A stretch of DNA of 64,000 bases, taken from positions 141,969-205,968 of the forward strand of contig JABGRK010000009.1 in the NCBI GenBank assembly GCA_018648325.1, read 5' to 3'. This document shows positions 4,340 to 31,421 of this stretch, in pieces; within the stretch, counting starts at the first letter, position 1; the number at the start of each line of letters is the position of its first letter. This DNA is from Chloroflexota bacterium. GTDB lineage: Bacteria; Chloroflexota; Dehalococcoidia; JABGRK01. A program made the translations under genes and the position numbers. The notes below the pieces were generated by a model. That model saw only the letters and a program-made list of their open reading frames with translations. It made no database searches and was not told where the DNA came from.

Positions 4340-7228
4340 TTAAGCTCCCTCTATATGTTCTAAAACAGGCCTGTAGACGTTTAGCATATCTATAAAGCTC
4401 TCTCTTGTAAAGTCATGAGAGCTATAGAGGGCCTCTTCGCAGAATGTAATAAACCTATCCAGCTTCCTCTGGTCGATATCTTTGAGTGATGCGACAATTA
4501 CACTCTCGATTTCTCTAGGTGTAGACTTCCTGCTTATATAAATGTCCCTATGCCTTGAGGCATTGACTGCCGAATCAAAGAGGCTGACAGCCTCCTCGCG
4601 ATAGTCAACTATTTTTATTGCCCTGCTATCATTTGACGGAGCATATTTCCCATCCCCATTAAAGAAGCACGTAACGTTATAGATGCCCTGCACTTTAAAG
4701 CGGCACATATATACGTCGGTACCATGTCCGTCCGTAATAATTTCACTTATTCTGTTGTCATTTGCCAACACCTCAATAGAGCGTGTGGCGACAGGCTCAC
4801 TCGCGATATCAGTGAGTTTACATACGATTTTGAGTTTTTCGTTTGTCCCCCATATTCCCTCAAGCGGTGCTGCGACATAAGGAAACTGCACTTCCATACG
4901 AGTGACTATAAGATTTGGGTTGTACTGCCTGGCAGGTTTCTCTGGCATTTCCGGTATTTCGGAAACCAATACCTCTTGAAGCGCAACAGTGTTCTGGGTC
5001 GCTGCCATAACATATGCGGCCCTGCGCCTTGAGCGAATAAAGAGATAGGCAACATATGCGGCCACAAGCGCCCCAAGTGCGACTAGAATCCACAGCACCC
5101 ATCCCATATAATCCTGGGCAGTCGCAGGGGCGCTAAGGTCTGCGCCATAATTCCGCTGGCCAATCTGCATATTAAAAACGGTTTGAGCAGGTGTATACAA
5201 CTCCGAACCATCAAATACAGCAGTAATGGTATAGTCACCGGAATTTGAGAAAAGATGCTCACTCATCTTAAAATTACCACCCAAATTGGTTAGAACCGGT
5301 TCATATTCAATTTCACTGCCATCAAAATCAATGATGACCCTAACCGGTACCTGTCTAACAGGGGATTGATCACCAGTGAGTATGTTACCCCGTATCTTTA
5401 TATCATCAAACTCGGTGGCGGTTTCAGGCATCTGGTCATCGAATGCAATCACGGATTGGGCCATAACGATAAAAGTGATGTTTTCATTGGATCCCCAAAA
5501 ATAGCCGGTTTGCTGAAAGTCTGACTGAAATTCCCAATATCCTTCTTCATCAAATTCATGGTTAATAAGAATTATGCCATCTGCATCGGTGTTCTGAAGT
5601 GGATAACCATGATGAGCTATACCCATTGATGTACTATAATCAATGCTCTGTCCGGCAACAGGATTGCCCTCTACATCACGCAACTCCACCTCAATAGACA
5701 CTTCATCCCCTGTCATGTGCGGTGCCGGCGAAGTTACAACTACACTTATGCGGGTAGGCATCATAACAACCATATCGGTACTGACACTGGTCGGCAGATA
5801 ATCAGACGTGCCAAGAAAAAAGGCCGTTGCGGTGTAATTTCCAACTCCCGAAAAGCCGTCCACCCAAGTGTAACTATAGCGGCCTTTCACATCTGTGATA
5901 GTTTGTACACGCATATCAGGATCGCTCACTGGAAAGACCATCTGTAGTTCAGTATGTGGGATGGGATCGCCATTAATGTCTTCGAGTACACCACCAAGAG
6001 TTACGGCGCGCTCAAACATGAAACTTCCAGAATAATCGGTTGTCAAAGAGCCAAGCGGGATGGATGCTACTGCATCTTCAAACCACAAATCTACGCTAAC
6101 ATTAGATTCAAAAGAATAGCCATATAAAGGATTATATGACCTGACAGTACCCTGAAGGCCAATTGAATAGGGCAGAGAATATGCCCCATCGGAGTCGGTT
6201 AACATCAGCACCTGCGGGAAAAAGGCACGCTGGTCCAGCAACAAATCAACTGTAAGCCCGTCAAACGGATCACCGCCATAAGTGGTAATTGTTCCTCTAA
6301 GATCAAATGTTGTAGATAATATAAACTGACCCAGCCCATTGGTTGTCAACTGGGCAAATACTACCATCCCCTCACCATCGTCTATCATAAGGTCAATGGT
6401 CTGCCCTGTTATTGGCTGACCCAGGGCATCGGTAAGAACGCCGGCAATATTAATAACATCATCTAGCACAAAGCCACCGCTTGCATCTGTAACTACCTGT
6501 GCAGAAATTGACTTGCTGCACAGATGAATATACACCGATTGGTTTATTAGAGGATCACCAAACTCATCCAACAAAAAGCCCTCATATGTAACAGGGTTGA
6601 GTGCATCAATTACACTTTCAGAATCAAGAGTAAGAGCAGAATCGATACGCGTCTCAATAACAGCCACAGCGTTAGAGCCTGCCAAATAAAGAGCGCTCCG
6701 TTGTTCAAATTCTGTTTTGACCCCGAATATATTAAAATCTTCAAACGTATATGTAAAGCTGTAGCTTCCATTCAAATTTGTGGTAAATGTGCCAATATAG
6801 TCGCCATTGATACTCAGATATATCGTCTGGTCGGCTATCGGGTCGCCCGACACCGTTTCCGTAAGAAAGCCTTCAATAACAACTTCCTCATTTATTAGGG
6901 CATACTGCGGCATATTTATAGTGAGTGTGGTTGGAGTAAGCACCATTACTTGATAAGAGTTATCGGCAGCGGGCGGATATAAGTTGGCACCGGCAAACGA
7001 GGCGGTGATCTCATAATCGCCGGAAGCATTAAACGTATGCACCAGAAAAAAGCGCCCTTTATCGTCAGTTACAACCTGTACATCGGGACTGCCGTCGTCA
7101 ACATGAATATTAACGGTGTAACCCACCAGGTCATTACCGAACTCGTCATGCATCGCCCCCCCCAATATCACAGGGTCCGTACGCAAGCGGCTGATTGCTA
7201 ACAAAAAGAACAATGGTGGGAGGACCAT
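4340..7228 (-). CDS. C-terminal portion (962 aa) of giant repeat surface protein: Ig-like repeats, one TM helix, ~250-aa C-terminal tail
   Basis: repeat units homologous to those of 7146..10508 (…EFGNDL…DGSPD…); frame differs from upstream ORF by a G8 tract. Confidence 0.65.
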   Translation of the reverse strand: MVLPPLFFLLAISRLRTDPVILGGAMHDEFGNDLVGYTVNIHVDDGSPDVQVVTDDKGRFFLVHTFNASGDYEITASFAGANLYPPAADNSYQVMVLTPTTLTINMPQYALINEEVVIEGFLTETVSGDPIADQTIYLSINGDYIGTFTTNLNGSYSFTYTFEDFNIFGVKTEFEQRSALYLAGSNAVAVIETRIDSALTLDSESVIDALNPVTYEGFLLDEFGDPLINQSVYIHLCSKSISAQVVTDASGGFVLDDVINIAGVLTDALGQPITGQTIDLMIDDGEGMVVFAQLTTNGLGQFILSTTFDLRGTITTYGGDPFDGLTVDLLLDQRAFFPQVLMLTDSDGAYSLPYSIGLQGTVRSYNPLYGYSFESNVSVDLWFEDAVASIPLGSLTTDYSGSFMFERAVTLGGVLEDINGDPIPHTELQMVFPVSDPDMRVQTITDVKGRYSYTWVDGFSGVGNYTATAFFLGTSDYLPTSVSTDMVVMMPTRISVVVTSPAPHMTGDEVSIEVELRDVEGNPVAGQSIDYSTSMGIAHHGYPLQNTDADGIILINHEFDEEGYWEFQSDFQQTGYFWGSNENITFIVMAQSVIAFDDQMPETATEFDDIKIRGNILTGDQSPVRQVPVRVIIDFDGSEIEYEPVLTNLGGNFKMSEHLFSNSGDYTITAVFDGSELYTPAQTVFNMQIGQRNYGADLSAPATAQDYMGWVLWILVALGALVAAYVAYLFIRSRRRAAYVMAATQNTVALQEVLVSEIPEMPEKPARQYNPNLIVTRMEVQFPYVAAPLEGIWGTNEKLKIVCKLTDIASEPVATRSIEVLANDNRISEIITDGHGTDVYMCRFKVQGIYNVTCFFNGDGKYAPSNDSRAIKIVDYREEAVSLFDSAVNASRHRDIYISRKSTPREIESVIVASLKDIDQRKLDRFITFCEEALYSSHDFTRESFIDMLNVYRPVLEHIEGA

Positions 7229-10200
7229 ACACCCGTATCACATCAGATGCTGAGTTAGACTTATAATAATCATTTTCGGTAAAAACGGCGTATACAGTAC
7301 GATCGCCGGAGTCAGTAAATGTGTGATCGTAAGTATAGCTGCCATCTCCTAAAATTTCCACATTGCCGCTGATAAGCGTTACTCCATCAAACAGGGATAA
7401 GCTTTGCCCTGCCAGCGGGATGCCATCTATATCATGTAGAGTACCATTGATAGTAATCTGAGTATTTACTTTTGCCTCTTCAGGAACGTTAACAGTAAGC
7501 TGGGTCGGCATTATTATTTTGATAATGTCAGAAGAACTTGTTCCGGGATAAAGCGCCGTTCCTATAAAACTAGCTGTTACAGTATAATCGCCTACATCAG
7601 CAAACGTATGCTCCCATACAAATAGTCCGCCTGCGCCCGTCACAAACGGAACATCGGGGCTACCATCTGAGAAATGAATTACAACCGGTTGGCCCTCTAG
7701 ATCGTTGCCGAACTCCTCATACATATGAATTCTGATAGTAACAGGCTGATCATATATATCTACTCTTGGGATCAGGATAATGTCTATAAACGGCGGACCA
7801 TACACACGTACATCAGCAACCGGTTCGCTGCGAGCCTCCTTATAGAAGTTAGCATTATCAACAGCGAATTTTGCAAATACATCGTAATCGCCCGAGCGTA
7901 CAAACTTATAATCAACTTCGTAGCTTCCATCAGACTGTGTAGTTGTCTGTGTAAGAACCTCATCACCGTTCATTATGTAAACCGTTGTACCCGCAAGAGG
8001 ATCACCCCAGTCATCCAGCAAAGAGCCTTCCATTGTAAGCGTTGTAGCCTGTTTGATTTCGATTGGCAGCGCGTTCATGGTTATACTGGTGGGCATCCAC
8101 ACAGTTACATCTACGCTGCTCTCAACACCGGGCATATAAGGGTCTATACCATCAAAAGCAGCACTTATTGTACGCTGCCCAACAGACAAGTATTGGATAG
8201 GGACCTCCAAAATACCCTGATTATCTGTTAGCAGATTGCCAATATTAACTGAATTTCCATTGCGAATGGAGTAAAAATGTATTATTTCCCCACTCACAGG
8301 TTCATCAAATTCGTCTATTAAGGTAGCTTTTATGAGATTCCCTCTCTCCTCATCATTGTCAATCACTCCATTATTATTTCTATCCAGAGATACATCTACG
8401 TTTTCATCTATCTCAAGTGTGAGAGTAGGCGGACCATACACGCGTATATCCTGCTCAAACCTTGAGGAATTGAACAATCCAAAAGTCGGGTCTTCATCCG
8501 GGAGGTAACCAAATATCCCGCCACCATCGTACACCACGCTGATGGTAAACTCGCCACGCTGATCAAACGTGCGATCCAACGTAAACTTCCCAGTGGGAAG
8601 CGTTACAACCTGTCCGATCAGAAGGGGTATCGTAGTGGCTCCCGTACGATTATAATAAATTCGCACTGTGCGGCCACCCATCTGCCTGCGAAGGATATCC
8701 TCAAGGGTGCCCTCAATCGTCCACGGGGCACCCAGCTTTATCTTTTCAGGCAGATTGTCAATAGAAAGAAGTGTATCTATAGTAACCTTTGTATCAGCGA
8801 TTTCGCTCACAGGCTTATGAAATTCATTGCCACTAAAAGATGCTTCAACGCTATAGTTTCCCTGAACACCAAAAACGTAGGGTAATACAAAGTCGCCACT
8901 TGGCAAAGTGGTAGTAGAAAGAGTGCTCAGTGTTGCGCCACTGTCTATATTTACTATTTCAATATCGACCGTTACCCCTGCTATAGGATTATCGGGGTAG
9001 ATTGCATCATGCAGATTGCCTGATATAATAAAAACATCGCCCACCTTGGCATCTTCAGACATTTTCGGTACAATCTCAGATTCCGTGGTAATGATTACAT
9101 CAGGATCACTATCCGATCCCAGCAGGAACGGCTGCAGACCCACCGCTTGCGCAATAATGTGCCAGTTGCCTGCCGTCATATCAATAGGCACATCGCACTC
9201 AATGTTATAGCCATCGCTTCCAACCACTCCCAATGCTACAAAAGAGGCTGGCTTGTTCGGCATCCCGTTAACAAATTCGGGCTTATCACTATCACCTCCC
9301 TGCCAGAGCCATATCCTTACAGGCATACTAGGCACGGTGATACCCTCAACGGTCGTTACATTGCCGATCACATAAAACGGCTGGTCTTTCTCTATTATAA
9401 TTCCTTCAAGAATGGGGGTTTCGGGATCATACTCAGGATTGCTCTGGATACTCCAGATATCGGTTATCGTCTCAACGGCTATATTATTTACATCTTTAAT
9501 CGGCATACTGTTGTAAACAATCCAACCAAGTTCCTCAAAACCTACCTCGGCCAGATAAATCGTCTGAACAGCGCTTACCGTCTGCTCTTCATCAGTAGGT
9601 GCAATCCAATATCCCGATGTCAGCCTTGCCGGTATGCCCGCGCAACGGGCCAATATCACATATGCCGATGCAAAGTGGTTTGAAAGACCCTGCCTCTCCT
9701 CAAACAAAAACCAGTCGGTTGCTTCCTCCCCACTAGGAAGAGCTGCCATATTTTCCCGCGAAAACTCGTAGTTTTCCAGTAAATACGTCTCTATGGCTTT
9801 CGATTTTTCGTAGGGGGACTCATAATCCGCAGTTATCTCAAGGGACAGTGCTTTAGTACGCGATGATATATTACCAGGCAGTTGCAGATACCTGGTGTCA
9901 TCAAGAACCTCTGCCTCAATGAGCACCTCATCATCAAAGTAGTAGTGTGTGGCAGTAAACTCGTAGGCCTCGGATGTACTCTGCTGCACCCAAAAGGACC
10001 CCGCCTCCGGATACAACATTATGGGATCGGGATGCGTAAGCTGTCTGGTATGAAGCGAAGTTGGAATAAACTGAGCAGGGAACTGTAAAAGCGGTGTGAT
10101 CGTAATTGTGTCTGTTGCCATATTCGAGTAGTTGCTCACATCAGCAGCGGGAAGCGTTTCGCCACGATAACTTCGCGGCTTATCATTTATGTCTTTTGCC

Positions 10201-10508
10201 CAAAGATTGCCATTATAGTGCGTTGCAGCAAAGCTTCTTAAGAAAAAAGTACTGCCTGCACCGGAAACAGTAAAAATATCCACATCACCAGGATAGTCCC
10301 CTTTCGGCTCTATCCCATCCCAACCTGCAGGCATGATAGCTGAGGGTTCAATATCCTTATCCCATATAGTATGCAAAATTGCATCTTCGGCCAACGGCGA
10401 TATCAGATTATCCGATATCATCATAAAAAGGCCGACCAGCGATACTAACACCGCCGCACCTACAAACGGAGCCAGAAGTCTCCTTTTGGAGCCAAACATG
10501 TTTCTCAT
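7146..10508 (-). CDS. N-terminal portion (1120 aa) of giant surface protein: signal/anchor, degenerate transglutaminase-like core, ~8 Ig-like/CarboxypepD_reg-like repeats
   Basis: …GLSNHFASAYVILARCAGIPARLTSGYW… resembles Transglut_core but Cys->Ser, His->Thr, Asp->Asn; recurring ~95-aa repeats ending RVYGPP. Confidence 0.7.
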   Translation of the reverse strand: MRNMFGSKRRLLAPFVGAAVLVSLVGLFMMISDNLISPLAEDAILHTIWDKDIEPSAIMPAGWDGIEPKGDYPGDVDIFTVSGAGSTFFLRSFAATHYNGNLWAKDINDKPRSYRGETLPAADVSNYSNMATDTITITPLLQFPAQFIPTSLHTRQLTHPDPIMLYPEAGSFWVQQSTSEAYEFTATHYYFDDEVLIEAEVLDDTRYLQLPGNISSRTKALSLEITADYESPYEKSKAIETYLLENYEFSRENMAALPSGEEATDWFLFEERQGLSNHFASAYVILARCAGIPARLTSGYWIAPTDEEQTVSAVQTIYLAEVGFEELGWIVYNSMPIKDVNNIAVETITDIWSIQSNPEYDPETPILEGIIIEKDQPFYVIGNVTTVEGITVPSMPVRIWLWQGGDSDKPEFVNGMPNKPASFVALGVVGSDGYNIECDVPIDMTAGNWHIIAQAVGLQPFLLGSDSDPDVIITTESEIVPKMSEDAKVGDVFIISGNLHDAIYPDNPIAGVTVDIEIVNIDSGATLSTLSTTTLPSGDFVLPYVFGVQGNYSVEASFSGNEFHKPVSEIADTKVTIDTLLSIDNLPEKIKLGAPWTIEGTLEDILRRQMGGRTVRIYYNRTGATTIPLLIGQVVTLPTGKFTLDRTFDQRGEFTISVVYDGGGIFGYLPDEDPTFGLFNSSRFEQDIRVYGPPTLTLEIDENVDVSLDRNNNGVIDNDEERGNLIKATLIDEFDEPVSGEIIHFYSIRNGNSVNIGNLLTDNQGILEVPIQYLSVGQRTISAAFDGIDPYMPGVESSVDVTVWMPTSITMNALPIEIKQATTLTMEGSLLDDWGDPLAGTTVYIMNGDEVLTQTTTQSDGSYEVDYKFVRSGDYDVFAKFAVDNANFYKEARSEPVADVRVYGPPFIDIILIPRVDIYDQPVTIRIHMYEEFGNDLEGQPVVIHFSDGSPDVPFVTGAGGLFVWEHTFADVGDYTVTASFIGTALYPGTSSSDIIKIIMPTQLTVNVPEEAKVNTQITINGTLHDIDGIPLAGQSLSLFDGVTLISGNVEILGDGSYTYDHTFTDSGDRTVYAVFTENDYYKSNSASDVIRVYGPPTIVLFVSNQPLAYGPCDIGGGDA
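7156..7163 (-). repeat. poly-G(8) homopolymer on coding strand at the frame junction of the giant protein
   Basis: …catcgcccccccc aat… ; with 7 G the two ORFs fuse into one ~2,050-aa protein (…PCDIGGAMHDEF…). Confidence 0.8.
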
Positions 10509-10789
10509 ACAACCACCGTGCAGGATACTTTGTTGCCGATTGTATTATCAATAGGTTTCATATCTCTAATAAACCTTATATCTTTACCAGTTAATCAAAC
10601 GCCACTTTGGGCCTGATTGCTCCATACTGTCTATATTAATATATACGCTGAAAGTGTCAATAATGTTCACCCCAAAGCAAGTAACAGTTTCCTCACAGTT
10701 TGTTAAGATATTGTTAAGACCCTCTAATTACTTTTAACGATAGCTACGTTAAAATGTCAGATGGCAAATATTTTCATATGCTACAATTT

Positions 10790-10945
10790 CTACAACGGTC
10801 TATACAGCCCTAATACGTAACCACATGCCTGACAGTAGTAACCATCAAAATCACGTTGGCGAGCCGTCCACTTCCCACCTGTCGCCATTCTAAACAATTC
10901 CTTTTTTATCTTCCTGCTATCGCACTTCGGACACTGCGATTCCAT
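10790..10945 (-). CDS. small YgiT-type zinc-ribbon protein (51 aa)
   Basis: MESQCPKCDSRK…YYCQACGYVLG; CxxC…CxxCG; paralog at 11731..11910. Confidence 0.5.
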   Translation of the reverse strand: MESQCPKCDSRKIKKELFRMATGGKWTARQRDFDGYYCQACGYVLGLYRPL

Positions 10946-11097
10946 GCATCCTCCCGTCTCAATAAACAGTATTGCTATTTTATATATAATACGACGTACA
11001 TGCAAGTGTAGAACTACGGTAGTTTGTATATCCCTGCGTGCGTCATGATATACTGCTGCAATAATACAATTGTGAATAGAAGATAAGAGACTAAGAA

Positions 11098-11271
11098 ATG
11101 GAATACAGCGATACACTTATAATACTATCGGTGGGGCTGTTTATCGGGTTGTTCGGCGGCAAAATGAGCAGGCCGTGGTCTCAGATAGCCACATGGCAGA
11201 AGACACTGCGTATCACCCTGCTTGTGATCGTTATGCTCATAATAGCAACCATTGTCCTTATGGCGCTTTAG
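11098..11271 (+). CDS. small hydrophobic protein (57 aa), 2 TM
   Basis: ATG after AG-rich RBS-like stretch (aagataagagactaag); MEYSDTLIILSVGLFIGLF…. Confidence 0.3.
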   Translation: MEYSDTLIILSVGLFIGLFGGKMSRPWSQIATWQKTLRITLLVIVMLIIATIVLMAL

Positions 11272-11295
11272 GTTAGAAGAAGGAAAAGAGACTTA

Positions 11296-11727
11296 ATGAA
11301 AAAACGTGGTTTGGGAATTGTGCTGATCATCATGCTGGTGCTGGTTATACCGGGTACTATCAATTGCAGTTGCGCTGGCGATAATCCCGCAGGTGAGATT
11401 GAAGAAACCATAACGGCTTATGTGCAGGCATATGCATCAAAAGATGCAACCGCAATGCTTGACCTTCAAACTACAGCGTATACAGCATCACTATCCGGAG
11501 GCCACCAAACTTATTGGGAAAACAGGTGGGGTGATAATACAGATTCAATAACAGAGTTAGAGGTAACCATTGTTTATCAGAATGCAACGGTTGCAACAGC
11601 CAGTGCTATATGCAATATAAAAACAACGCTGCCAAATGGCAGTACATGGTACCAAGGTAGCTGGCAATGGAACTACACGCTGGTAAAAACCGATAAGGTG
11701 TGGTTGATATCTTCAGAGATTCGATAG
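11296..11727 (+). CDS. secreted/lipoprotein of unknown function (paralog A)
   Basis: signal peptide + Cys; paralogous to 12056..12502 (…ASCNI…LPNGS…YQG…W…LVKT.DKW…). Confidence 0.6.
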   Translation: MKKRGLGIVLIIMLVLVIPGTINCSCAGDNPAGEIEETITAYVQAYASKDATAMLDLQTTAYTASLSGGHQTYWENRWGDNTDSITELEVTIVYQNATVATASAICNIKTTLPNGSTWYQGSWQWNYTLVKTDKVWLISSEIR

Positions 11728-11730
11728 TGA

Positions 11731-11910
11731 TTATTTATCATAATAACTATTCTTGTACCTATCTCGCTTATACGTTCCCAAAACATAGCCGCATGCCTGA
11801 CAGATATTAGTATCAAATAAAACAGCACGTTTAAACAATCCGTACTCTGTCATAACGTAAGTTTCCTTTTCAATATCACTGCTGCCACACTTAAGACACT
11901 CCGATTCCAT
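11731..11910 (-). CDS. small YgiT-type zinc-ribbon protein (59 aa), paralog of 10790..10945
   Basis: MESECLKCGSSDIEKETYVMTEYGLFKRAVLFDTNICQACGYVLGTYKRDR…; not in ORF track (<60 aa). Confidence 0.5.
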   Translation of the reverse strand: MESECLKCGSSDIEKETYVMTEYGLFKRAVLFDTNICQACGYVLGTYKRDRYKNSYYDK

Positions 11911-11992
11911 AAGTCCTCCTTACACAAAAACCATTACTGTTATTTCTTACGTATAATAAGATGTGCACGCCAATGAATCAATACTACACTTA

Positions 11993-12020
11993 TTGATATC
12001 CATGCGCACCATGCTATACT
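11993..12020 (+). promoter_or_regulatory. sigma70-like promoter TTGATA-N16-TATACT for lipoprotein paralog B
   Basis: hexamers and spacing; homologous element (…TGCG…ATACTG(C/T)TGCAATAATACAA) upstream of paralog A at ~11041-11085. Confidence 0.4.
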
Positions 12021-12055
12021 GTTGCAATAATACAACGGCTGATACGAGAGATGAC

Positions 12056-12502
12056 ATGATGAAGAAACGATTTTTTGTACTTACTTTAATCACGGTTCTA
12101 GCGATGGTTATGGCAAGCGCTATTGGTTGTGGTAGCAGCAATACGCAGGATACGCCGGAAAGCACAGTGAGGCTATGGTTGAAGGCATATGAATCCAAAA
12201 ATGCGACAGCACTTGTTAATCTTGGAACAGAAGGATTTAAAACGTTGACATATCCCCAAGAACCCGAGGACTATTGGGAAGGCAGATGGGGTTATAATAT
12301 ATTTTCAATGTCATCTATTAGTGTGACAATTACAGACCAAGACGAAACTACGGCAGAAGCTACCGCTTCATGCAATATTGTCGTAAGACTATCAGATGGT
12401 AGTATACAATATCAAGGTGGTACGACATGGGATTTTTCTCTGGTAAAAACCGCTGACAAATGGAGAGTATCCGCGGATGTGTGGCCACAACAAACCGGGT
12501 AA
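12056..12502 (+). CDS. lipoprotein of unknown function (paralog B)
   Basis: MMKKRFFVLTLITVLAMVMASAIGCGS lipobox; paralog of 11296..11727. Confidence 0.6.
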   Translation: MMKKRFFVLTLITVLAMVMASAIGCGSSNTQDTPESTVRLWLKAYESKNATALVNLGTEGFKTLTYPQEPEDYWEGRWGYNIFSMSSISVTITDQDETTAEATASCNIVVRLSDGSIQYQGGTTWDFSLVKTADKWRVSADVWPQQTG

Positions 12503-26264: not shown

Positions 26265-27312
26265 TTACGCCCACTCTTTTTCAAACAAAGCCTTCATTTC
26301 AATCTTATTGGCCTCAGGCATAAATGAGGCCTCAATGCCGTTCATACTTATCTGTTTCAGGTCATCAACGGTAAAACCCAATCGCTTAACCAGTGTCAGA
26401 TATTCATCGTTCATAGATGTATTAAACATGGCAGGATCATCAGAGTTAACAGTAACCATCAGCCCATCATCGAAGTACTGTTTTATGGGATGAGACTTAA
26501 TCGATTCACAAACACCGGTTCTGATGTTACTGATGGGACACATCTCCAGAGGAATACGTTTTTGCTTGAGCAATGCAACCAGTTCGGGATCTTCGTTAGC
26601 CCGCATGCCATGACCGATGCGCTCCACTCCCAGCTTACGTACAGCGCCCCATATCGACTCAACGCCCGCAAACCTCACCGGCATGCGCACTAAGCCTGTA
26701 TCCAAGCTCTTTGGCCCGCCTATATACGCCTGCATACGGTCCAGGCGGATGGTGCTGCTCGCTGCCGCCGATGGTAATTCCGACCAGTCCCTTGTCCAGA
26801 TAAGGCGACAGCTCCTCTATTCGCCGCATACCTATTTCCGGGCCATGGTCCCGTATGAGGTCCACGATAAGCGCGCTTTTTATGCCGAAGTCCGTATACG
26901 CTCTTTGCTTGCCCTCAATAATGCACTCGGTGATCTTCTGTGGAGGAAACCCCTTTCGCTCCGACGGAGCACCGTGTCTCCAGTAATCGCCGGGCGAATA
27001 GGTTAGTTCGGCATACTTAACGTTTTGCCCATGCAGGTCCCGCAGCACATCATAAGTTATCTGCTCAAAATCATGCTCCGATGTAATAAAGGTGTTTTTC
27101 CAGACCCACAGCCTGATGAAATTGTCAAAGTCTGTATAGGTAAACCTGCGTCGCAGGTCATCGACAGTGTTGATTTCCGGCTCCGTGCCCTTTTTCTTGA
27201 TAAGGCTCAGCAGTGTATCCAGAGGGATGGCTCCCTCCATGTGAAGGTGAAGTTCCACCTTGGGCATCTGCCGAATGAGCTGGGCTACCTGAGTACTAGC
27301 CTGCATACGCAC
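26265..27312 (-). pseudogene. add: adenosine deaminase split by +1 frameshift (ORFs 26659..27312 and 26265..26735); likely single-nt indel in a GGG run
   Basis: …VELHLHMEGA…SAHAGEV | …[18 protein letters not shown]…; removing one G restores …[15 protein letters not shown]…. Confidence 0.75.
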
Positions 27313-28995: not shown

Positions 28996-29214
28996 CTATC
29001 GGTCGGAAAGGCGATCCATCTGTTTTTCCAGCCGGTCGACGCGCTTACCCACAGGACAGGCGCCCGCCATGTTGTTTCGCAGCGTCTTTTCCACTACTAC
29101 GAAATCTTCCTTAATACTGTCTATTTGTTGACCGACCTTACCCTGCCACTTGGCGTTGGACTTGCCGTTGTGAAAAACGGTGTATCCCCAACCCACGGCA
29201 GTGGTGATCGACAA
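28996..29214 (-). CDS. hypothetical small protein
   Basis: 72-aa ORF only. Confidence 0.25.
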   Translation of the reverse strand: MSITTAVGWGYTVFHNGKSNAKWQGKVGQQIDSIKEDFVVVEKTLRNNMAGACPVGKRVDRLEKQMDRLSDR

Positions 29215-29287: not shown

Positions 29288-29452
29288 CTACTTTGCTGCC
29301 AAATGTACTTGTTCCCTTGAAGTAACTTCTATAACGAAAATATCACTGCAATTATCACAAACGTCCTCAACGTTAACAGGATATTCCGGAAAATCAGATA
29401 CGTCACTTATTAGGATTTTTTGCTCTACTCCACAATATGGACACTCTCTCAC
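29288..29452 (-). CDS. small zinc-ribbon protein (54 aa, GTG start, AAGGAGG RBS)
   Basis: VRECPYCGVEQ…VCDNCSDIF; not in ORF track. Confidence 0.3.
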   Translation of the reverse strand: MRECPYCGVEQKILISDVSDFPEYPVNVEDVCDNCSDIFVIEVTSREQVHLAAK

Positions 29453-29525
29453 TTTATCCTCCTTATGAGCTTGCTGGCCGATAGTGCGGCGGTTGTTAGC
29501 GGCATATGTAAAACCTCCTGATAAT

Positions 29526-29568
29526 AAAAAAACCCCTCCGGTGACGCATATGAGTCACTTTGGAGGGG
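29526..29568 (-). terminator. strong hairpin + T7 on minus strand with no obvious upstream minus-strand gene (orphan terminator / island boundary)
   Basis: CCCCTCCGGTGAC…GTCACtttGGAGGGG preceded by A7 on + strand. Confidence 0.45.
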
Positions 29569-29761
29569 CAAATACTCTGCCTGTTATGGGGCGAAAGTTA
29601 TTCGCCATGTGGGGCTGTCATGCAGCCTTGTTTATTTGTACTTTCCTAGTTTCGTGAATTTTACTATTTTTGTCAAACGCAGTATATAGTGCAATAGGTA
29701 TTATCAACAATCATGAATATGATATTTACTTCGGCATAGTCAGAATAGTAAAATCCAAGGC

Positions 29762-30601
29762 ATGGATAGAGAAGAACTTAGGAATAAAACCATTTTCGAA
29801 ATTGAGGAGTTTCTTCAAGAATACAAAGAATATGTGCAAAACGTTAGGCAACGCACTATTAAGTCACTCATTGATGAATTGCGTGTAAATTTACAGAGGA
29901 AGGCTCCTTTAATAACAAGACACGTCCTAGCTATTAAAGGTGAAGGAACTTTCAGCCTTGGACTGGCTGGTAGTATACAAACAAGCGCTGTATTGGCCTC
30001 TGCAGTCATGGGCGGCAACAATGAAGTTTCTCATAATCTATCCATGTATGAAACAGCCGTATCATCTATATTAAATAGTGCCTTGGGCTCTATAGAAGCA
30101 GACATTTGGCCGCCTAAAGAAAATACACCTGCGAAGGAGCAAAAACAAATGGTAAACCCTCTCTCAAATAATAGTGTATGGCAACATATTGAGAATGATT
30201 ATGGTATATCTAAAAATTCCTTTGCTAGGAAAATCAATTTCATTAAAGACACGTTCAAAAGAAAAATAATATTCCGTGATATTGAACACGCATATACACT
30301 CGCAAAGAACGGATTCTCAAAGCCAGCAGTAATCATATCTGGTGGCGTAATAGAAGAATTATTACGTCAATACTTAGAAAGTAATAATGTTACCCCATCA
30401 AGAAATGATTTCAATAATTATATTAAGGCCTGTGAGGATAACGATCTTCTCAAAGGAGATATATCTCAATTATCGCATGTTGTTCGAGAGTTTCGAAACT
30501 ACGTACACTTAAGCAAAGAAAAAAGTTCAAAAGATACAGTCTCAAAGGCTACAGCAATAGGAGCCGTGTCCTTTATTTTTACAATAGCAAACGATTTTTA
30601 G
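29762..30601 (+). CDS. hypothetical protein, AT-rich island gene 1; C-terminal HEPN-like motif (R-E-F-R-N-Y-V-H)
   Basis: 279 aa; local GC ~35-40% vs ~50% flanks; …LSHVVREFRNYVHLSKE…. Confidence 0.4.
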   Translation: MDREELRNKTIFEIEEFLQEYKEYVQNVRQRTIKSLIDELRVNLQRKAPLITRHVLAIKGEGTFSLGLAGSIQTSAVLASAVMGGNNEVSHNLSMYETAVSSILNSALGSIEADIWPPKENTPAKEQKQMVNPLSNNSVWQHIENDYGISKNSFARKINFIKDTFKRKIIFRDIEHAYTLAKNGFSKPAVIISGGVIEELLRQYLESNNVTPSRNDFNNYIKACEDNDLLKGDISQLSHVVREFRNYVHLSKEKSSKDTVSKATAIGAVSFIFTIANDF

Positions 30602-30633
30602 TTAGGTAGAACAGTTATCCAAAGGATATTTAT

Positions 30634-31155
30634 ATGCAAGAACCACCAGAAGTAATAAAAGAACGAATCTACAATCTAGCTCGCGGCGAATACCTTAGTA
30701 AGATGGCTTCAATTGAGCATCGTATGACTTCCCTTATTGTTGATTTACTTGGAGTGCAGAACTTCACAACCGAGTTTCATTGGTGGTTTCTAGAAGCTAG
30801 AATCCCGTTCGAGCAAAAAGTTTCTCTCCTTAAAGAATTGATTAAGGGGGAAACGTATCTGAATCAGTTTGGGGATATTAGCAAAAAAATCATTGACGCA
30901 CAAAAATTCAGAAATAAACTGGCTCATTCTTTCCATCTAATGGATGAAATCATGACTTCCCGCGGTGAAATCCTACAATCAGATCAAATATCTTTAAAAG
31001 TTCTCAGCAATAAATTGGGGCAAATACACGCTCTTAATATTCTCCTTGGAGACACCTATATGGTATCGATTTATGGTGGTTCCCCTCCTATATCCGTTGA
31101 GGAATACAAAAAGTATGAAGACTATCGGCCAGAATACCTAGAAGGCTTCATATAG
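30634..31155 (+). CDS. hypothetical protein, AT-rich island gene 2; HEPN/Abi-like R-N-x3-H motif
   Basis: 173 aa all-helical; …AQKFRNKLAHSFHLMDE…. Confidence 0.4.
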   Translation: MQEPPEVIKERIYNLARGEYLSKMASIEHRMTSLIVDLLGVQNFTTEFHWWFLEARIPFEQKVSLLKELIKGETYLNQFGDISKKIIDAQKFRNKLAHSFHLMDEIMTSRGEILQSDQISLKVLSNKLGQIHALNILLGDTYMVSIYGGSPPISVEEYKKYEDYRPEYLEGFI

Positions 31156-31202
31156 CCCCCCCTCCATCACCTTCCTCCACCCCACACAAAACATCGCTTT
31201 TC

Positions 31203-31340
31203 TGCTATAATCGAAACGAGCGGTTATTTTCACATCGATATAGTCACTAAAAACCGAATGTGACTACTATAATCGTAACGTTTTGGCTTACTACTGTTGA
31301 CATCGCACGATTTACGTCCTATAATCGCAATATCCTACGT
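31203..31340 (+). promoter_or_regulatory. three direct repeats YTATAATCG(N)AAC spaced 62/52 nt plus GTCAC-N12-GTGAC inverted repeat
   Basis: tgctataatcgaaacg / tactataatcgtaacg / tcctataatcgcaatatcc. Confidence 0.4.
31297..31325 (+). promoter_or_regulatory. consensus sigma70 promoter TTGACA-N17-TATAAT upstream of aminotransferase
   Basis: exact hexamers, 17-nt spacer. Confidence 0.5.
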
Positions 31341-31421
31341 TTTCAGTACGGCACTTACTTCAATAGCAAACTATTAGAAAAACCATCACTACATATATAT
31401 GTAAGGTAAGGGAGAGAAATT

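What the first reader, a model, noticed from the sequence alone, without database searches (positions are those of the whole stretch)
29670..31160. AT-rich two-gene island encoding proteins with HEPN-like R-N-x3-H motifs: candidate undescribed toxin/abortive-infection-type module
Two adjacent same-strand genes (279 aa and 173 aa) sit in a ~1.7-kb segment at roughly 35-40% GC, against ~50% GC on both sides. The left edge is marked by a strong orphan terminator hairpin at 29526-29568. The right edge is marked by a repeat-rich promoter region at 31200-31340. Gene 2 carries FRNKLAHSFH, an exact R-[N]-x3-H HEPN signature as in Abi2/AbiD/AbiU2-type RNases. Gene 1 carries REFRNYVH in the equivalent C-terminal position. 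Neither protein has any other recognisable domain, and no antitoxin-like MNT or methyltransferase partner is present. The composition, the boundaries and the paired HEPN-like motifs suggest a horizontally acquired, possibly novel two-component HEPN system.
Basis: partly seen in the sequence, partly recalled or inferred. Interest (0 to 1): 0.65.

Follow-up and report, generated by a model that had tools for sequence, protein, structure and literature searches.

The report
Two unrelated HEPN-type RNase genes, low-GC islet
A small AT-rich, probably horizontally acquired insert in a marine Chloroflexota genome carries two adjacent but evolutionarily independent genes for predicted HEPN-fold RNases, most likely stand-alone defence or stress toxins; this is two new members of a well-known kind, not a new two-part system.

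Summary
Two same-strand ORFs (279 aa, 29762-30601; 173 aa, 30634-31155) form the lowest-GC 1.4 kb of the window (0.36 vs 0.466, z -3.7).

Gene 2 belongs to a rare family (22 representatives) with an invariant canonical R-N-x3-H. Its model is confident; the HEPN assignment is only moderately supported.

The two-component idea fails. No gene 2 relative occurs in 71 other gene 1 loci, and no gene 1 relative occurs in 7 other gene 2 contexts. The families share nothing detectable beyond the motif. Neither has a fixed partner, MNT or RNA repeat.

Best reading: two independent single-gene HEPN RNase effectors, with RAZR-type DUF4145 defences as the closest working analogy. RNase activity and a defence role are inferred, not shown.

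The parts
29762..30601 (+). Gene 1 (279 aa; NCBI MBT3362367.1, 'hypothetical protein'). Predicted HEPN RNase with a variable helical N-terminal region and a conserved C-terminal module.
29762..30163 (+). Gene 1 residues 1-134: lineage-variable, all-helical N-terminal region, a putative sensor or regulatory part.
   Evidence: Low to moderate pLDDT, four helices. N-termini of 167 homologs fall into about 40 BLAST clusters, 8 to about 300 aa long. No domain hit.
30164..30598 (+). Gene 1 residues 135-279: conserved DUF4145-like HEPN module.
30485..30508 (+). Gene 1 predicted catalytic motif R242-E-F-R245-N246-Y-V-H249.
   Evidence: R-x-[FYLW]-R-N-x-x-H found in 120/120 database homologs and 62/64 genome-locus homologs. 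One exception is a truncated ORF; the other has R242 replaced by K and keeps FRNLVH. The same motif occurs in the distant relatives from phage phiKM1 and a Streptomyces plasmid.
30634..31155 (+). Gene 2 (173 aa; NCBI MBT3362368.1, 'hypothetical protein'). Minimal, probably HEPN-fold protein of a rare family.
30910..30927 (+). Gene 2 canonical HEPN motif R93-N94-K-L-A-H98, followed by S-F.
   Evidence: R93, N94 and H98 are invariant in 15/15 family members. The pattern is R-N-x-[LVI]-[AG]-H-[SC]-[FYW].
30621..30626 (+). Shine-Dalgarno-like AAAGGA 7 nt upstream of the gene 2 ATG. The 32-bp gap has no terminator, so the genes are probably co-transcribed.
   Evidence: Sequence. No terminator-like site between the genes. 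Co-transcription is inferred.
29725..29754 (+). Weak sigma-70-like site (TTTACT-18-TAAAAT, 9/12) ending 7 nt before the gene 1 ATG. This could give a leaderless gene 1 mRNA.
   Evidence: The total number of promoter-like sites is not above the shuffle expectation, so this is tentative.
29525..29568 (-). Strong intrinsic terminator on the minus strand (stem CCCCTCC/GGAGGGG plus T7). It marks the left side of the low-GC segment.
   Evidence: dG -22.9 kcal/mol, z -4.4. Sequence.
29609..29641 (+). Plus-strand terminator-like hairpin with a T-rich tail. Together with the minus-strand terminator it forms a bidirectional terminator cluster that would insulate gene 1 from upstream read-through.
   Evidence: Hairpins are visible in the fold.
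31156..31421 (+). Right boundary: C-rich tract, three CTATAATCGnAA repeats and a perfect sigma-70 consensus promoter. This belongs to the downstream aminotransferase gene, not to the pair.

Best explanation
The segment is a small, horizontally acquired accessory islet carrying two independent single-gene HEPN-type effectors that happen to lie side by side and are probably co-transcribed.

Gene 1 belongs to a large, unnamed, DUF4145-like HEPN family. In this family a near-constant C-terminal RNase module (predicted catalytic R245/N246/H249, with R242) is joined to many alternative N-terminal regions.

Inferred mechanism: the protein is kept inactive until its N-terminal region senses a cue such as a phage or plasmid component. 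HEPN modules then pair to form a composite, metal-independent RNase site that cuts cellular and/or invader RNA and arrests growth (abortive-infection logic, as shown for the DUF4145 protein RAZR).

Gene 2 is a minimal HEPN-like protein of a rare family with a canonical R-N-x3-H site. It is probably also a homodimeric RNase or RNA-binding effector acting on its own.

Shown here: the ORFs, the composition, the folds, motif conservation, the distribution of each family and the lack of a conserved partner. Inferred: RNase activity, activation by sensing, and a defence role.
For: Foreign composition: z -3.7, GC3 0.30 and 0.37 against 0.55 and 0.63 in the flanking genes.

Gene 1 fold and family:
- 16 of 26 members hit DUF4145, best E 0.0017.
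- The motif is present in 120/120 and 62/64 homologs.
- About 40 N-terminal types sit on one constant module.
- 66 loci come from many bacterial phyla plus Heimdall- and Thorarchaeota at 45-66% identity.
- Homolog genes are AT-richer than their flanks in 56/60 loci, p about 8e-11.

Gene 1 contexts:
- There is no recurrent neighbour.
- The only recurring neighbour themes are R-M components and transposases (Mrr_cat x3, N6_N4_Mtase x2, ResIII x2, Eco29kI, several transposases). Some are tightly linked, such as Mrr at 29 bp and an MTase at 21 bp.
- Distant relatives sit beside HicAB and a RelA/SpoT gene in phage phiKM1, and beside TIGR02679/TIGR02680 genes on a Streptomyces plasmid.

Gene 2:
- R93, N94 and H98 are invariant. 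The AF2 model is confident.
- Relatives lie beside a type III R-M system and beside an integrase.

Independence of the two families.

Literature: DUF4145-type HEPN proteins act as single-gene defences. RAZR, with R146/H154 essential, cleaves ssRNA and works by abortive infection (PMC13017515). BxaP is described in PMC10799925 and Ishtar in bioRxiv 10.64898/2026.07.06.735840. DUF4145 domain fusions and R-M links are described in PMC3710099.
Against: - No experiment supports any activity, and RNase activity is unproven.
- Gene 1's most conserved spacing (R-N-x2-H) lies outside the canonical Rx4-6H. Only R242-x6-H249 fits, and R242 is K in one homolog.
- The motif helix of gene 1 is the least confident part of the C-terminal model (pLDDT 56-60 for residues 231-260).
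- Most neighbours of gene 1 homologs are ordinary housekeeping genes. Defence-island association is modest and was not tested statistically.
- No PADLOC defence model matches gene 1 meaningfully.
- The family is absent from 2.9 million viral contigs and nearly absent from plasmids.
- How an antitoxin-less minimal HEPN such as gene 2 would be kept harmless is unexplained.
Confidence: 0.6

Rival explanations
1. A genuine two-component HEPN-HEPN system. The two proteins would work together, for example as a heterodimeric composite RNase, or with one HEPN protein neutralising the other like a toxin-antitoxin pair.
For: The genes are adjacent, on the same strand, 32 bp apart with a ribosome-binding site and no intervening terminator. 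They share an anomalous composition. The pair is kept intact in 21 contigs of the population. Both carry HEPN-type motifs, and HEPN active sites are normally formed by two HEPN domains (PMC13017515, PMC3710099).
Against: No gene 2 relative occurs in 71 other gene 1 loci, and no gene 1 relative occurs in the 9 loci (7 distinct contexts) that carry a gene 2 relative. Both tests used HMMs at E up to 10. There are more than 610 gene 1 clusters against only 22 gene 2 representatives. The profiles are unrelated. The 21 contigs are at least 99.99% identical, so they count as one observation.
Confidence: 0.08
2. One or both proteins are non-toxic HEPN-fold regulators or RNA-binding and RNA-processing factors, like MtlR/YggD-type HEPN proteins or the substrate-binding HEPN domains of nucleotidyltransferases, with no role in defence.
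Against: The catalytic-type R/N/H residues are strictly conserved in both families. There is no Pfam MtlR hit. The patchy cross-phylum distribution, AT-rich foreign composition, swapping of N-terminal regions, and R-M, transposase, integrase and TA neighbours in a subset of loci all fit accessory conflict genes better than core regulators.
Confidence: 0.2
3. A classical HEPN-MNT (HepT/MntA) type II toxin-antitoxin module, or a type III module with an RNA antitoxin, whose partner was missed.
Against: No nucleotidyltransferase gene lies in the locus or recurs next to homologs. The position of the Tyr that MntA AMPylates in HepT (my own knowledge; compare PDB titles 7ae2 and 8xdj) is Phe in 13 of 15 family 2 members. 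HepT-like Pfam hits reach only E 0.15-0.19 in single members. There is no tandem-repeat array and no Rfam match.
Confidence: 0.03

Closest known systems
DUF4145 (PF13643) HEPN proteins acting as single-gene defences: RAZR/PD-T7-4, BxaP, Ishtar1
   Same: Gene 1 has a DUF4145-like HEPN module (sub-threshold hits in 16/26 members) joined to a separate non-catalytic region. It has no partner gene. Its Arg-His spacing is non-canonical, as in RAZR (R146/H154). Like DUF4145 proteins, a subset of homologs is linked to R-M genes (PMC3710099). The likely logic is the same: a sensor region plus an RNase effector, with activation by assembly (PMC13017515).
   Different: No member reaches the Pfam cut-off, and there is no PADLOC PD-T7-4 hit. 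There is no zinc-ribbon domain. The N-terminus is helical and varies among about 40 types. The motif is R-x-F-R-N-x-V-H, one residue shorter between N and H than I recall for the DUF4145 consensus. The module has an extra conserved 30-aa N-terminal element (W140...F160). The family comes mostly from uncultured anaerobic or sediment and marine lineages, including Asgard archaea.
HepT (HEPN) toxins of HEPN-MNT toxin-antitoxin systems
   Different: There is no MNT antitoxin gene here or next to any homolog. The AMPylatable Tyr position is Phe in gene 2's family. No significant HepT Pfam hit was found.
CARF-HEPN effectors (Csm6/Csx1)
   Different: There is no CARF domain and no CRISPR-Cas context. 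The matches are far below significance.
MtlR/YggD HEPN-like regulators
   Different: There is no Pfam MtlR match and no mannitol or PTS context. The R/N/H triad is strictly conserved here.
AbiJ/Abi2-type abortive-infection HEPN proteins with modular N-terminal domains
   Same: The architecture principle is the same: a HEPN effector fused to interchangeable N-terminal domains (PMC3710099). A distant Streptomyces relative weakly hits AbiJ_NTD3.
   Different: There are no significant Abi_2, AbiJ or AbiU2 hits for either protein. The N-terminal regions here match no described AbiJ-NTD.

Membership tests
HEPN superfamily | All-alpha up-and-down helical bundle (HEPN fold) | tested here: met
HEPN superfamily | Conserved Rx4-6H motif in the penultimate core helix | tested here: met
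   Gene 2: R93-x4-H98 is invariant in 15/15 members. Gene 1: R242-x6-H249 fits and is present in 120/120 homologs, but the most strictly conserved pair is R245-x3-H249, which is outside the canonical range.
HEPN superfamily | Metal-independent RNase activity dependent on the Arg and His residues | not testable with these tools
   This needs in vitro cleavage assays and R-to-A and H-to-A mutants.
Pfam DUF4145 (PF13643) | Score at or above the gathering threshold (23.1 bits) | tested here: not met
   Gene 1 scores 13.8 bits, E 0.063. 16 of 26 homologs hit, all below the cut-off, best E 0.0017. A distant Streptomyces relative scores 19.4 bits. Gene 1 is related to DUF4145 but is not a member by Pfam's rule.
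RAZR / PD-T7-4 | N-terminal Cys4 zinc-ribbon domain fused to DUF4145, and a match to the PADLOC PD-T7-4 model | tested here: not met
   Gene 1 has a single Cys and no zinc ribbon. There is no PD-T7-4 hit at E up to 10. A separate 54-aa CxxC...CxxC ORF lies divergently upstream, but no such ORF recurs beside the 64 genome-locus homologs checked.
HEPN-MNT (HepT/MntA) toxin-antitoxin | Adjacent minimal nucleotidyltransferase antitoxin gene | tested here: not met
   None is present in the window locus. None recurs next to homologs of either family.
HEPN-MNT (HepT/MntA) toxin-antitoxin | Rx4HxY motif with the Tyr that is AMPylated | tested here: not met
   Gene 2's family has R-N-x3-H-[SC]-F in 13/15 members, with Y once and W once. 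Gene 1 has H-L-S at these positions.
   No hit for either protein at E up to 10. One of 15 family 2 members hits Abi_2 at E 0.18.
Conserved two-gene system (gene 1 family plus gene 2 family) | Co-occurrence of the two families in other genomes | tested here: not met
   0 of 71 other gene 1 loci contain a family 2 ORF. 0 of the 9 loci (7 distinct contexts) carrying a gene 2 relative contain a family 1 ORF. Both tests used hmmsearch on six-frame ORFs at E up to 10.
Type III toxin-antitoxin (RNA antitoxin) | Tandem direct repeats next to the toxin gene | tested here: not met
   TRF finds only a 23-bp, 1.9-copy repeat at 29148-29170. There is no Rfam match.

The most novel reading that the evidence does not exclude
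In this Chloroflexota lineage the two unrelated HEPN proteins have been recruited into a heteromeric unit. Either they form a composite R/H active site from two different HEPN proteins (a trans version of the two-HEPN arrangement of Cas13), or the minimal HEPN (gene 2) acts as a decoy partner that holds gene 1's RNase inactive. The second case would be a HEPN-HEPN toxin-antitoxin with no MNT. The evidence does not exclude this, because the pair is co-oriented, tightly spaced and probably co-transcribed. It is disfavoured because the two families never co-occur elsewhere.
Probability: 0.07. Interest if true: 0.65.

Novelty: new member of a known kind. Interest (0 to 1): 0.33.

Why it matters
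HEPN RNases are a major effector class in prokaryotic immunity and toxin-antitoxin systems. Single-gene DUF4145-type defences (RAZR, BxaP, Ishtar) have only recently been characterised.

Gene 1 points to a large protein family that is unnamed in Pfam, NCBIfam and PADLOC (more than 610 clusters at 90% identity). It has an unusually conserved DUF4145-like module with an atypical R-N-x2-H spacing and about 40 interchangeable N-terminal regions. It is spread across uncultured bacterial phyla and Asgard archaea. If its members are sensor-effector RNases, the N-terminal diversity would be a ready-made catalogue of trigger-recognition modules in poorly studied lineages.

The segment is an ordinary small accessory islet with two independent HEPN genes, not a new two-component mechanism.

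Tried and rejected
- Empty-site search. A metagenome scan with the flanking aminotransferase returned only relatives at 35% identity or less, so the insertion boundaries could not be defined.
- Population variation for dN/dS. All seven retrievable copies are at least 99.99% identical.
- Viral carriage. There is no family 1 relative in IMG/VR. The family 2 alignment was too divergent for the pattern scan. Only distant relatives occur in cultured phages and plasmids.
- Foldseek against the PDB for gene 2 gave nothing significant. The AFDB library was unavailable.
- PDB sequence-profile searches for both families found no HEPN entry.
- A profile-profile comparison of the two families aligned only 18 columns around FRN, at probability 1.3%.
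- The zinc-ribbon ORF (29288-29452, minus strand) as a split RAZR-like partner. The lead was a weak hit to the N-terminal part of phrog_1305. No such ORF recurs near family 1 genes: only 4 of 64 loci have any CxxC...CxxC small ORF, and none is similar.
- RNA antitoxin or riboswitch in the leader. There is no Rfam match and no tandem repeats. The fold of the 313-nt minus-strand leader is not unusual (z -1.2).
- Recurrent neighbour families. All-vs-all BLAST of the +/-2 ORFs around 64 genome-locus homologs gave only syntenic pairs between related genomes.
- One family 2 member hits PADLOC candidate PDC-S35 (E 1.3e-12).
Full report
**1. Observation**

They are 32 bp apart. An AAAGGA lies 7 nt before the second ATG, and there is no terminator-like site between them, so co-transcription is likely but inferred.

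The pair is 0.368 GC. The window mean is 0.466 (sd 0.029 for 1.4-kb windows), and the flanking alcohol-dehydrogenase and aminotransferase genes are 0.526 and 0.543. The pair is the lowest-GC 1.4-kb segment in the 64 kb (z = -3.7). GC3 is 0.30 and 0.37 against 0.55 and 0.63 in the flanking genes.

The hairpin at 29526-29568 is real and strong (-22.9 kcal/mol, z = -4.4, 0 of 200 shuffles fold as well). It is a minus-strand intrinsic terminator, with stem CCCCTCC/GGAGGGG followed by T7. A weaker plus-strand terminator-like hairpin follows at 29609-29641. Together they look like a bidirectional terminator cluster just left of gene 1.

The right-hand intergenic region holds three CTATAATCGnAA repeats and a perfect TTGACA-17-TATAAT at 31297-31325. 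These serve the downstream aminotransferase gene.

Both motif strings are present.

**2. Source**

Both proteins are deposited as 'hypothetical protein' from Chloroflexota MAGs (MBT3362367.1 and MBT3362368.1). The same ADH / gene 1 / gene 2 / aminotransferase arrangement occurs on 21 metagenomic contigs, the longest 549 kb. The seven retrievable copies are at least 99.99% identical to the window, so they count as a single observation of one near-clonal population.

**3. Gene 1**

Library scans give only sub-threshold hints: DUF4145 at E 0.063, and nothing in NCBIfam or PADLOC. The word-indexed search nevertheless finds more than 610 homologous clusters.

The alignment shows a variable N-terminus and a very strongly conserved C-terminal module of about 145 aa (residues 135-279). 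Its 36 invariant positions in 26 diverse sequences include R242, F244, R245, N246, V248 and H249.

The motif R-x-[FYLW]-R-N-x-x-H is present in 120/120 database hits and in 62/64 genome-locus homologs. One of the two exceptions is a truncated ORF. The other has K in place of R242 and keeps FRNLVH.

AlphaFold2 models the module confidently (pLDDT above 90 for residues 140-230). The motif helix itself is less confident, at 56-60.

Sixteen of 26 members hit Pfam DUF4145 below the cut-off, best E 0.0017. The protein also matches phrog_27477 (E 1.2e-6) and phrog_1305 (E 0.002).

Two distant relatives carry the same R-N-x2-H style. One is an unannotated ORF in Komagataeibacter phage phiKM1 (hhalign probability 96.7% to the family). 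The other is on a Streptomyces plasmid; it scores 19.4 bits on DUF4145 against a cut-off of 23.1 and weakly hits AbiJ_NTD3.

Conclusion: gene 1 carries a divergent DUF4145-like HEPN module. It is not a Pfam DUF4145 member by threshold, and it is not a RAZR homolog, since it has no zinc ribbon and no PD-T7-4 hit.

**4. The gene 1 family**

A scan of one genome per species returned 66 loci. They come from Planctomycetota, Desulfobacterota/'Deltaproteobacteria', Chloroflexota, Bacteroidota/Ignavibacteria, Omnitrophota, Patescibacteria, Nitrospirota and Campylobacterota. Heimdall- and Thorarchaeota are also represented, at 45-66% identity over the module.

N-terminal regions range from about 8 to about 300 aa and fall into about 40 BLAST clusters among 167 sequences. 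Some members are the bare module of about 153 aa.

No neighbour family recurs. Among 139 flanking ORFs, the only repeated themes are R-M components (Mrr_cat x3, N6_N4_Mtase x2, ResIII x2, Eco29kI, several PADLOC R-M and candidate models) and transposases. The rest are housekeeping genes. A few R-M genes are tightly linked: Mrr at 29 bp, an MTase at 21 bp, and an HsdR-like fragment that overlaps.

The gene is AT-richer than its flanks in 56 of 60 loci (mean -7.8 GC points, Wilcoxon p about 8e-11). The family is absent from IMG/VR by pattern scan and nearly absent from plasmid and phage collections.

The two distant relatives lie in accessory or defence-type regions. One is beside HicAB and a RelA/SpoT-family gene in the phage. 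The other is beside a large AAA protein and TIGR02679/TIGR02680 genes on the plasmid. From my own knowledge, those two TIGRFAM families are Wadjet components.

**5. Gene 2**

The word-indexed search found only the protein itself. Exhaustive HMMER against 1.84 billion representatives found 22 proteins, most about 160 aa and 30-40% identical.

R93, N94 and H98 are invariant, as are W51, L65 and G111. The motif reads R-N-x-[LVI]-[AG]-H-[SC]-[FYW] in 15/15 members, and many members end in a conserved SADDFADWP tail.

The AF2 model is confident (pLDDT 91, pTM 0.85). It is all-alpha with a short beta-hairpin after the motif helix.

Individual members weakly hit HEPN_Cthe2314, HepT-like, Abi_2 and several CARF_HEPN models.

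I therefore rate 'HEPN-fold' for gene 2 as likely (about 0.7) but not firm. The position of the Tyr in HepT's Rx4HxY motif is Phe in 13 of 15 members. From my own knowledge, that Tyr is the residue AMPylated by the MNT antitoxin, so Phe there is consistent with the absence of an MNT partner.

Contexts of relatives include a type III R-M system (divergent), a phage-type integrase (77 bp upstream), an amidohydrolase and a membrane protein, and some are short contigs. All six family 2 loci checked are AT-richer than their flanks, though those flanks are short, 0.9-6 kb.

**6. Are they a system?**

No. BLAST and then HMM searches of six-frame ORFs find no family 2 ORF in any of 71 other family 1 loci. 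They find no family 1 ORF in the 9 loci (7 distinct contexts) that carry a family 2 gene.

The two profiles are unrelated apart from 18 columns around FRN (hhalign probability 1.3%). Family sizes differ by more than an order of magnitude.

Neither family has an MNT, methyltransferase or other fixed partner. The locus has no tandem-repeat RNA and no Rfam match.

A divergent 54-aa CxxC...CxxC ORF (29288-29452, minus strand) has a good ribosome-binding site, and it weakly hits the N-terminal part of phrog_1305, the same profile whose C-terminal part matches gene 1's HEPN region. That raised the idea of a split RAZR-like zinc-ribbon partner. No such ORF recurs beside family 1 genes.

**7. Mechanism**

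The steps below are inferred. Validated DUF4145-type single-gene defences supply the analogy. RAZR combines a sensor domain with a HEPN domain, and its R146 and H154 are essential. It is activated by assembling on phage ring proteins, cleaves ssRNA and causes abortive infection (PMC13017515). BxaP is described in PMC10799925, and Ishtar in bioRxiv 10.64898/2026.07.06.735840. The HEPN superfamily survey describes the same modular architecture (PMC3710099).

By this analogy, gene 1 most likely acts as a self-contained sensor-effector. The variable N-terminal region holds the protein inactive or recognises a cue. HEPN modules then dimerise or oligomerise to form a composite R/N/H site that cleaves RNA and arrests growth.

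Gene 2 is most likely an independent minimal HEPN RNase or RNA-binding protein. How it is controlled is unknown.

The two genes probably arrived in the same variable spot and are expressed together, as is common in small defence islets.

Confidence by claim:
- HEPN identity of gene 1: about 0.9.
- HEPN identity of gene 2: about 0.7.
- Independence of the two genes: about 0.85.
- Defence or abortive-infection role: about 0.5-0.6.

**8. Caveats**

- Neighbour ORFs were called crudely (longest ORFs chosen greedily).
- Family 2 contexts are few and short.
- The genome scan samples one genome per species through two peptide patterns.
- No empty site could be found, so horizontal acquisition rests on composition and patchy distribution.
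- All functional statements are predictions.

**9. Verdict**

Novelty: new members of a known kind. These are two unnamed HEPN families, one of them large and DUF4145-like with an atypical R-N-x2-H spacing.

Interest is modest. The finding is useful as a pointer to an unannotated and probably defence-related family, but it is not surprising to a specialist.

Noticed in passing
window 29288-29571 (minus strand): A 54-aa CxxC...CxxC ORF (29288-29452) has a strong SD (AAGGAGG, 5 nt, GTG). It is preceded by an 18-aa upstream ORF (ATG near 29509, AGGAGG SD) whose TGA stop overlaps the GTG start (GTGA). Both lie immediately downstream of the strong minus-strand terminator, a layout reminiscent of a leader or attenuator. 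There are weak Cys_rich_CPXG and phrog_1305 N-terminal hits only. The gene callers of the public records did not call it.
   Followed up: partly
window 29525-29641: A cluster of three hairpins forms what looks like a bidirectional terminator: a strong minus-strand terminator (29568 to 29525) and a plus-strand terminator-like hairpin (29609-29641). No minus-strand gene lies upstream of the minus-strand terminator. A short minus-strand RNA or an antisense transcript is possible but unsupported: no convincing promoter, no Rfam hit, and the leader fold has z -1.2.
   Followed up: partly
window 31156-31421: The leader of the aminotransferase gene contains a C-rich, G-poor tract (31156-31190), three CTATAATCGnAA boxes (31205, 31267, 31319; spacing 62 and 52 bp) and a perfect TTGACA-17-TATAAT (31297-31325). 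These could be tandem promoters or repeated operator sites.
   Followed up: no
window ~26265-27312 (minus strand): The adenosine-deaminase gene is split into two overlapping ORFs (146 aa and 215-217 aa, both A_deaminase) in the window and in all metagenomic copies. It may be a frameshifted pseudogene or a genuinely split gene.
   Followed up: no
window 10551-12502: This is the second-lowest-GC patch of the window (0.404, z -2.2). It contains a small Cys-rich ORF (10790-11116, minus strand) and two tandem paralogous lipoprotein-like ORFs (11296-11727 and 11963-12502). It lies next to a 1120-aa repeat-rich secreted-type protein (7146-10508, minus strand).
   Followed up: no
L092 2680-3453 (Komagataeibacter phage phiKM1, LC644974.1, about 45.4-46.2 kb): An unannotated 257-aa ORF is homologous to the gene 1 HEPN module (hhalign probability 96.7%, motif KYFRNLIH). 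It lies directly after HicA/HicB and a RelA/SpoT-family gene, in a likely phage accessory or defence cassette.
   Followed up: partly
L093 3569-4411 (Streptomyces chartreusis plasmid NZ_CP108842.1): A 280-aa hypothetical protein (WP_331748766.1) is a distant gene 1 relative (motif RDYRNFVH; DUF4145 at 19.4 bits; weak AbiJ_NTD3 hit). It overlaps the end of a very large AAA-domain protein and sits beside TIGR02679/TIGR02680-family genes.
   Followed up: partly
L042 2537-4434 and downstream: In a Bacteroidetes MAG the family 1 gene overlaps by 13 bp an upstream ORF with HSDR_N and ResIII domains. A 1428-aa ORF follows 37 bp downstream. This suggests that the HEPN gene is embedded in, or interrupts, a type I-like restriction locus.
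   Followed up: no
family 2 alignment A3 (PADLOC scan): One of the 15 gene 2 family members hits PADLOC defence candidate PDC-S35 at E 1.3e-12. It may be P0130, which has a 65-aa N-terminal extension.
   Followed up: no
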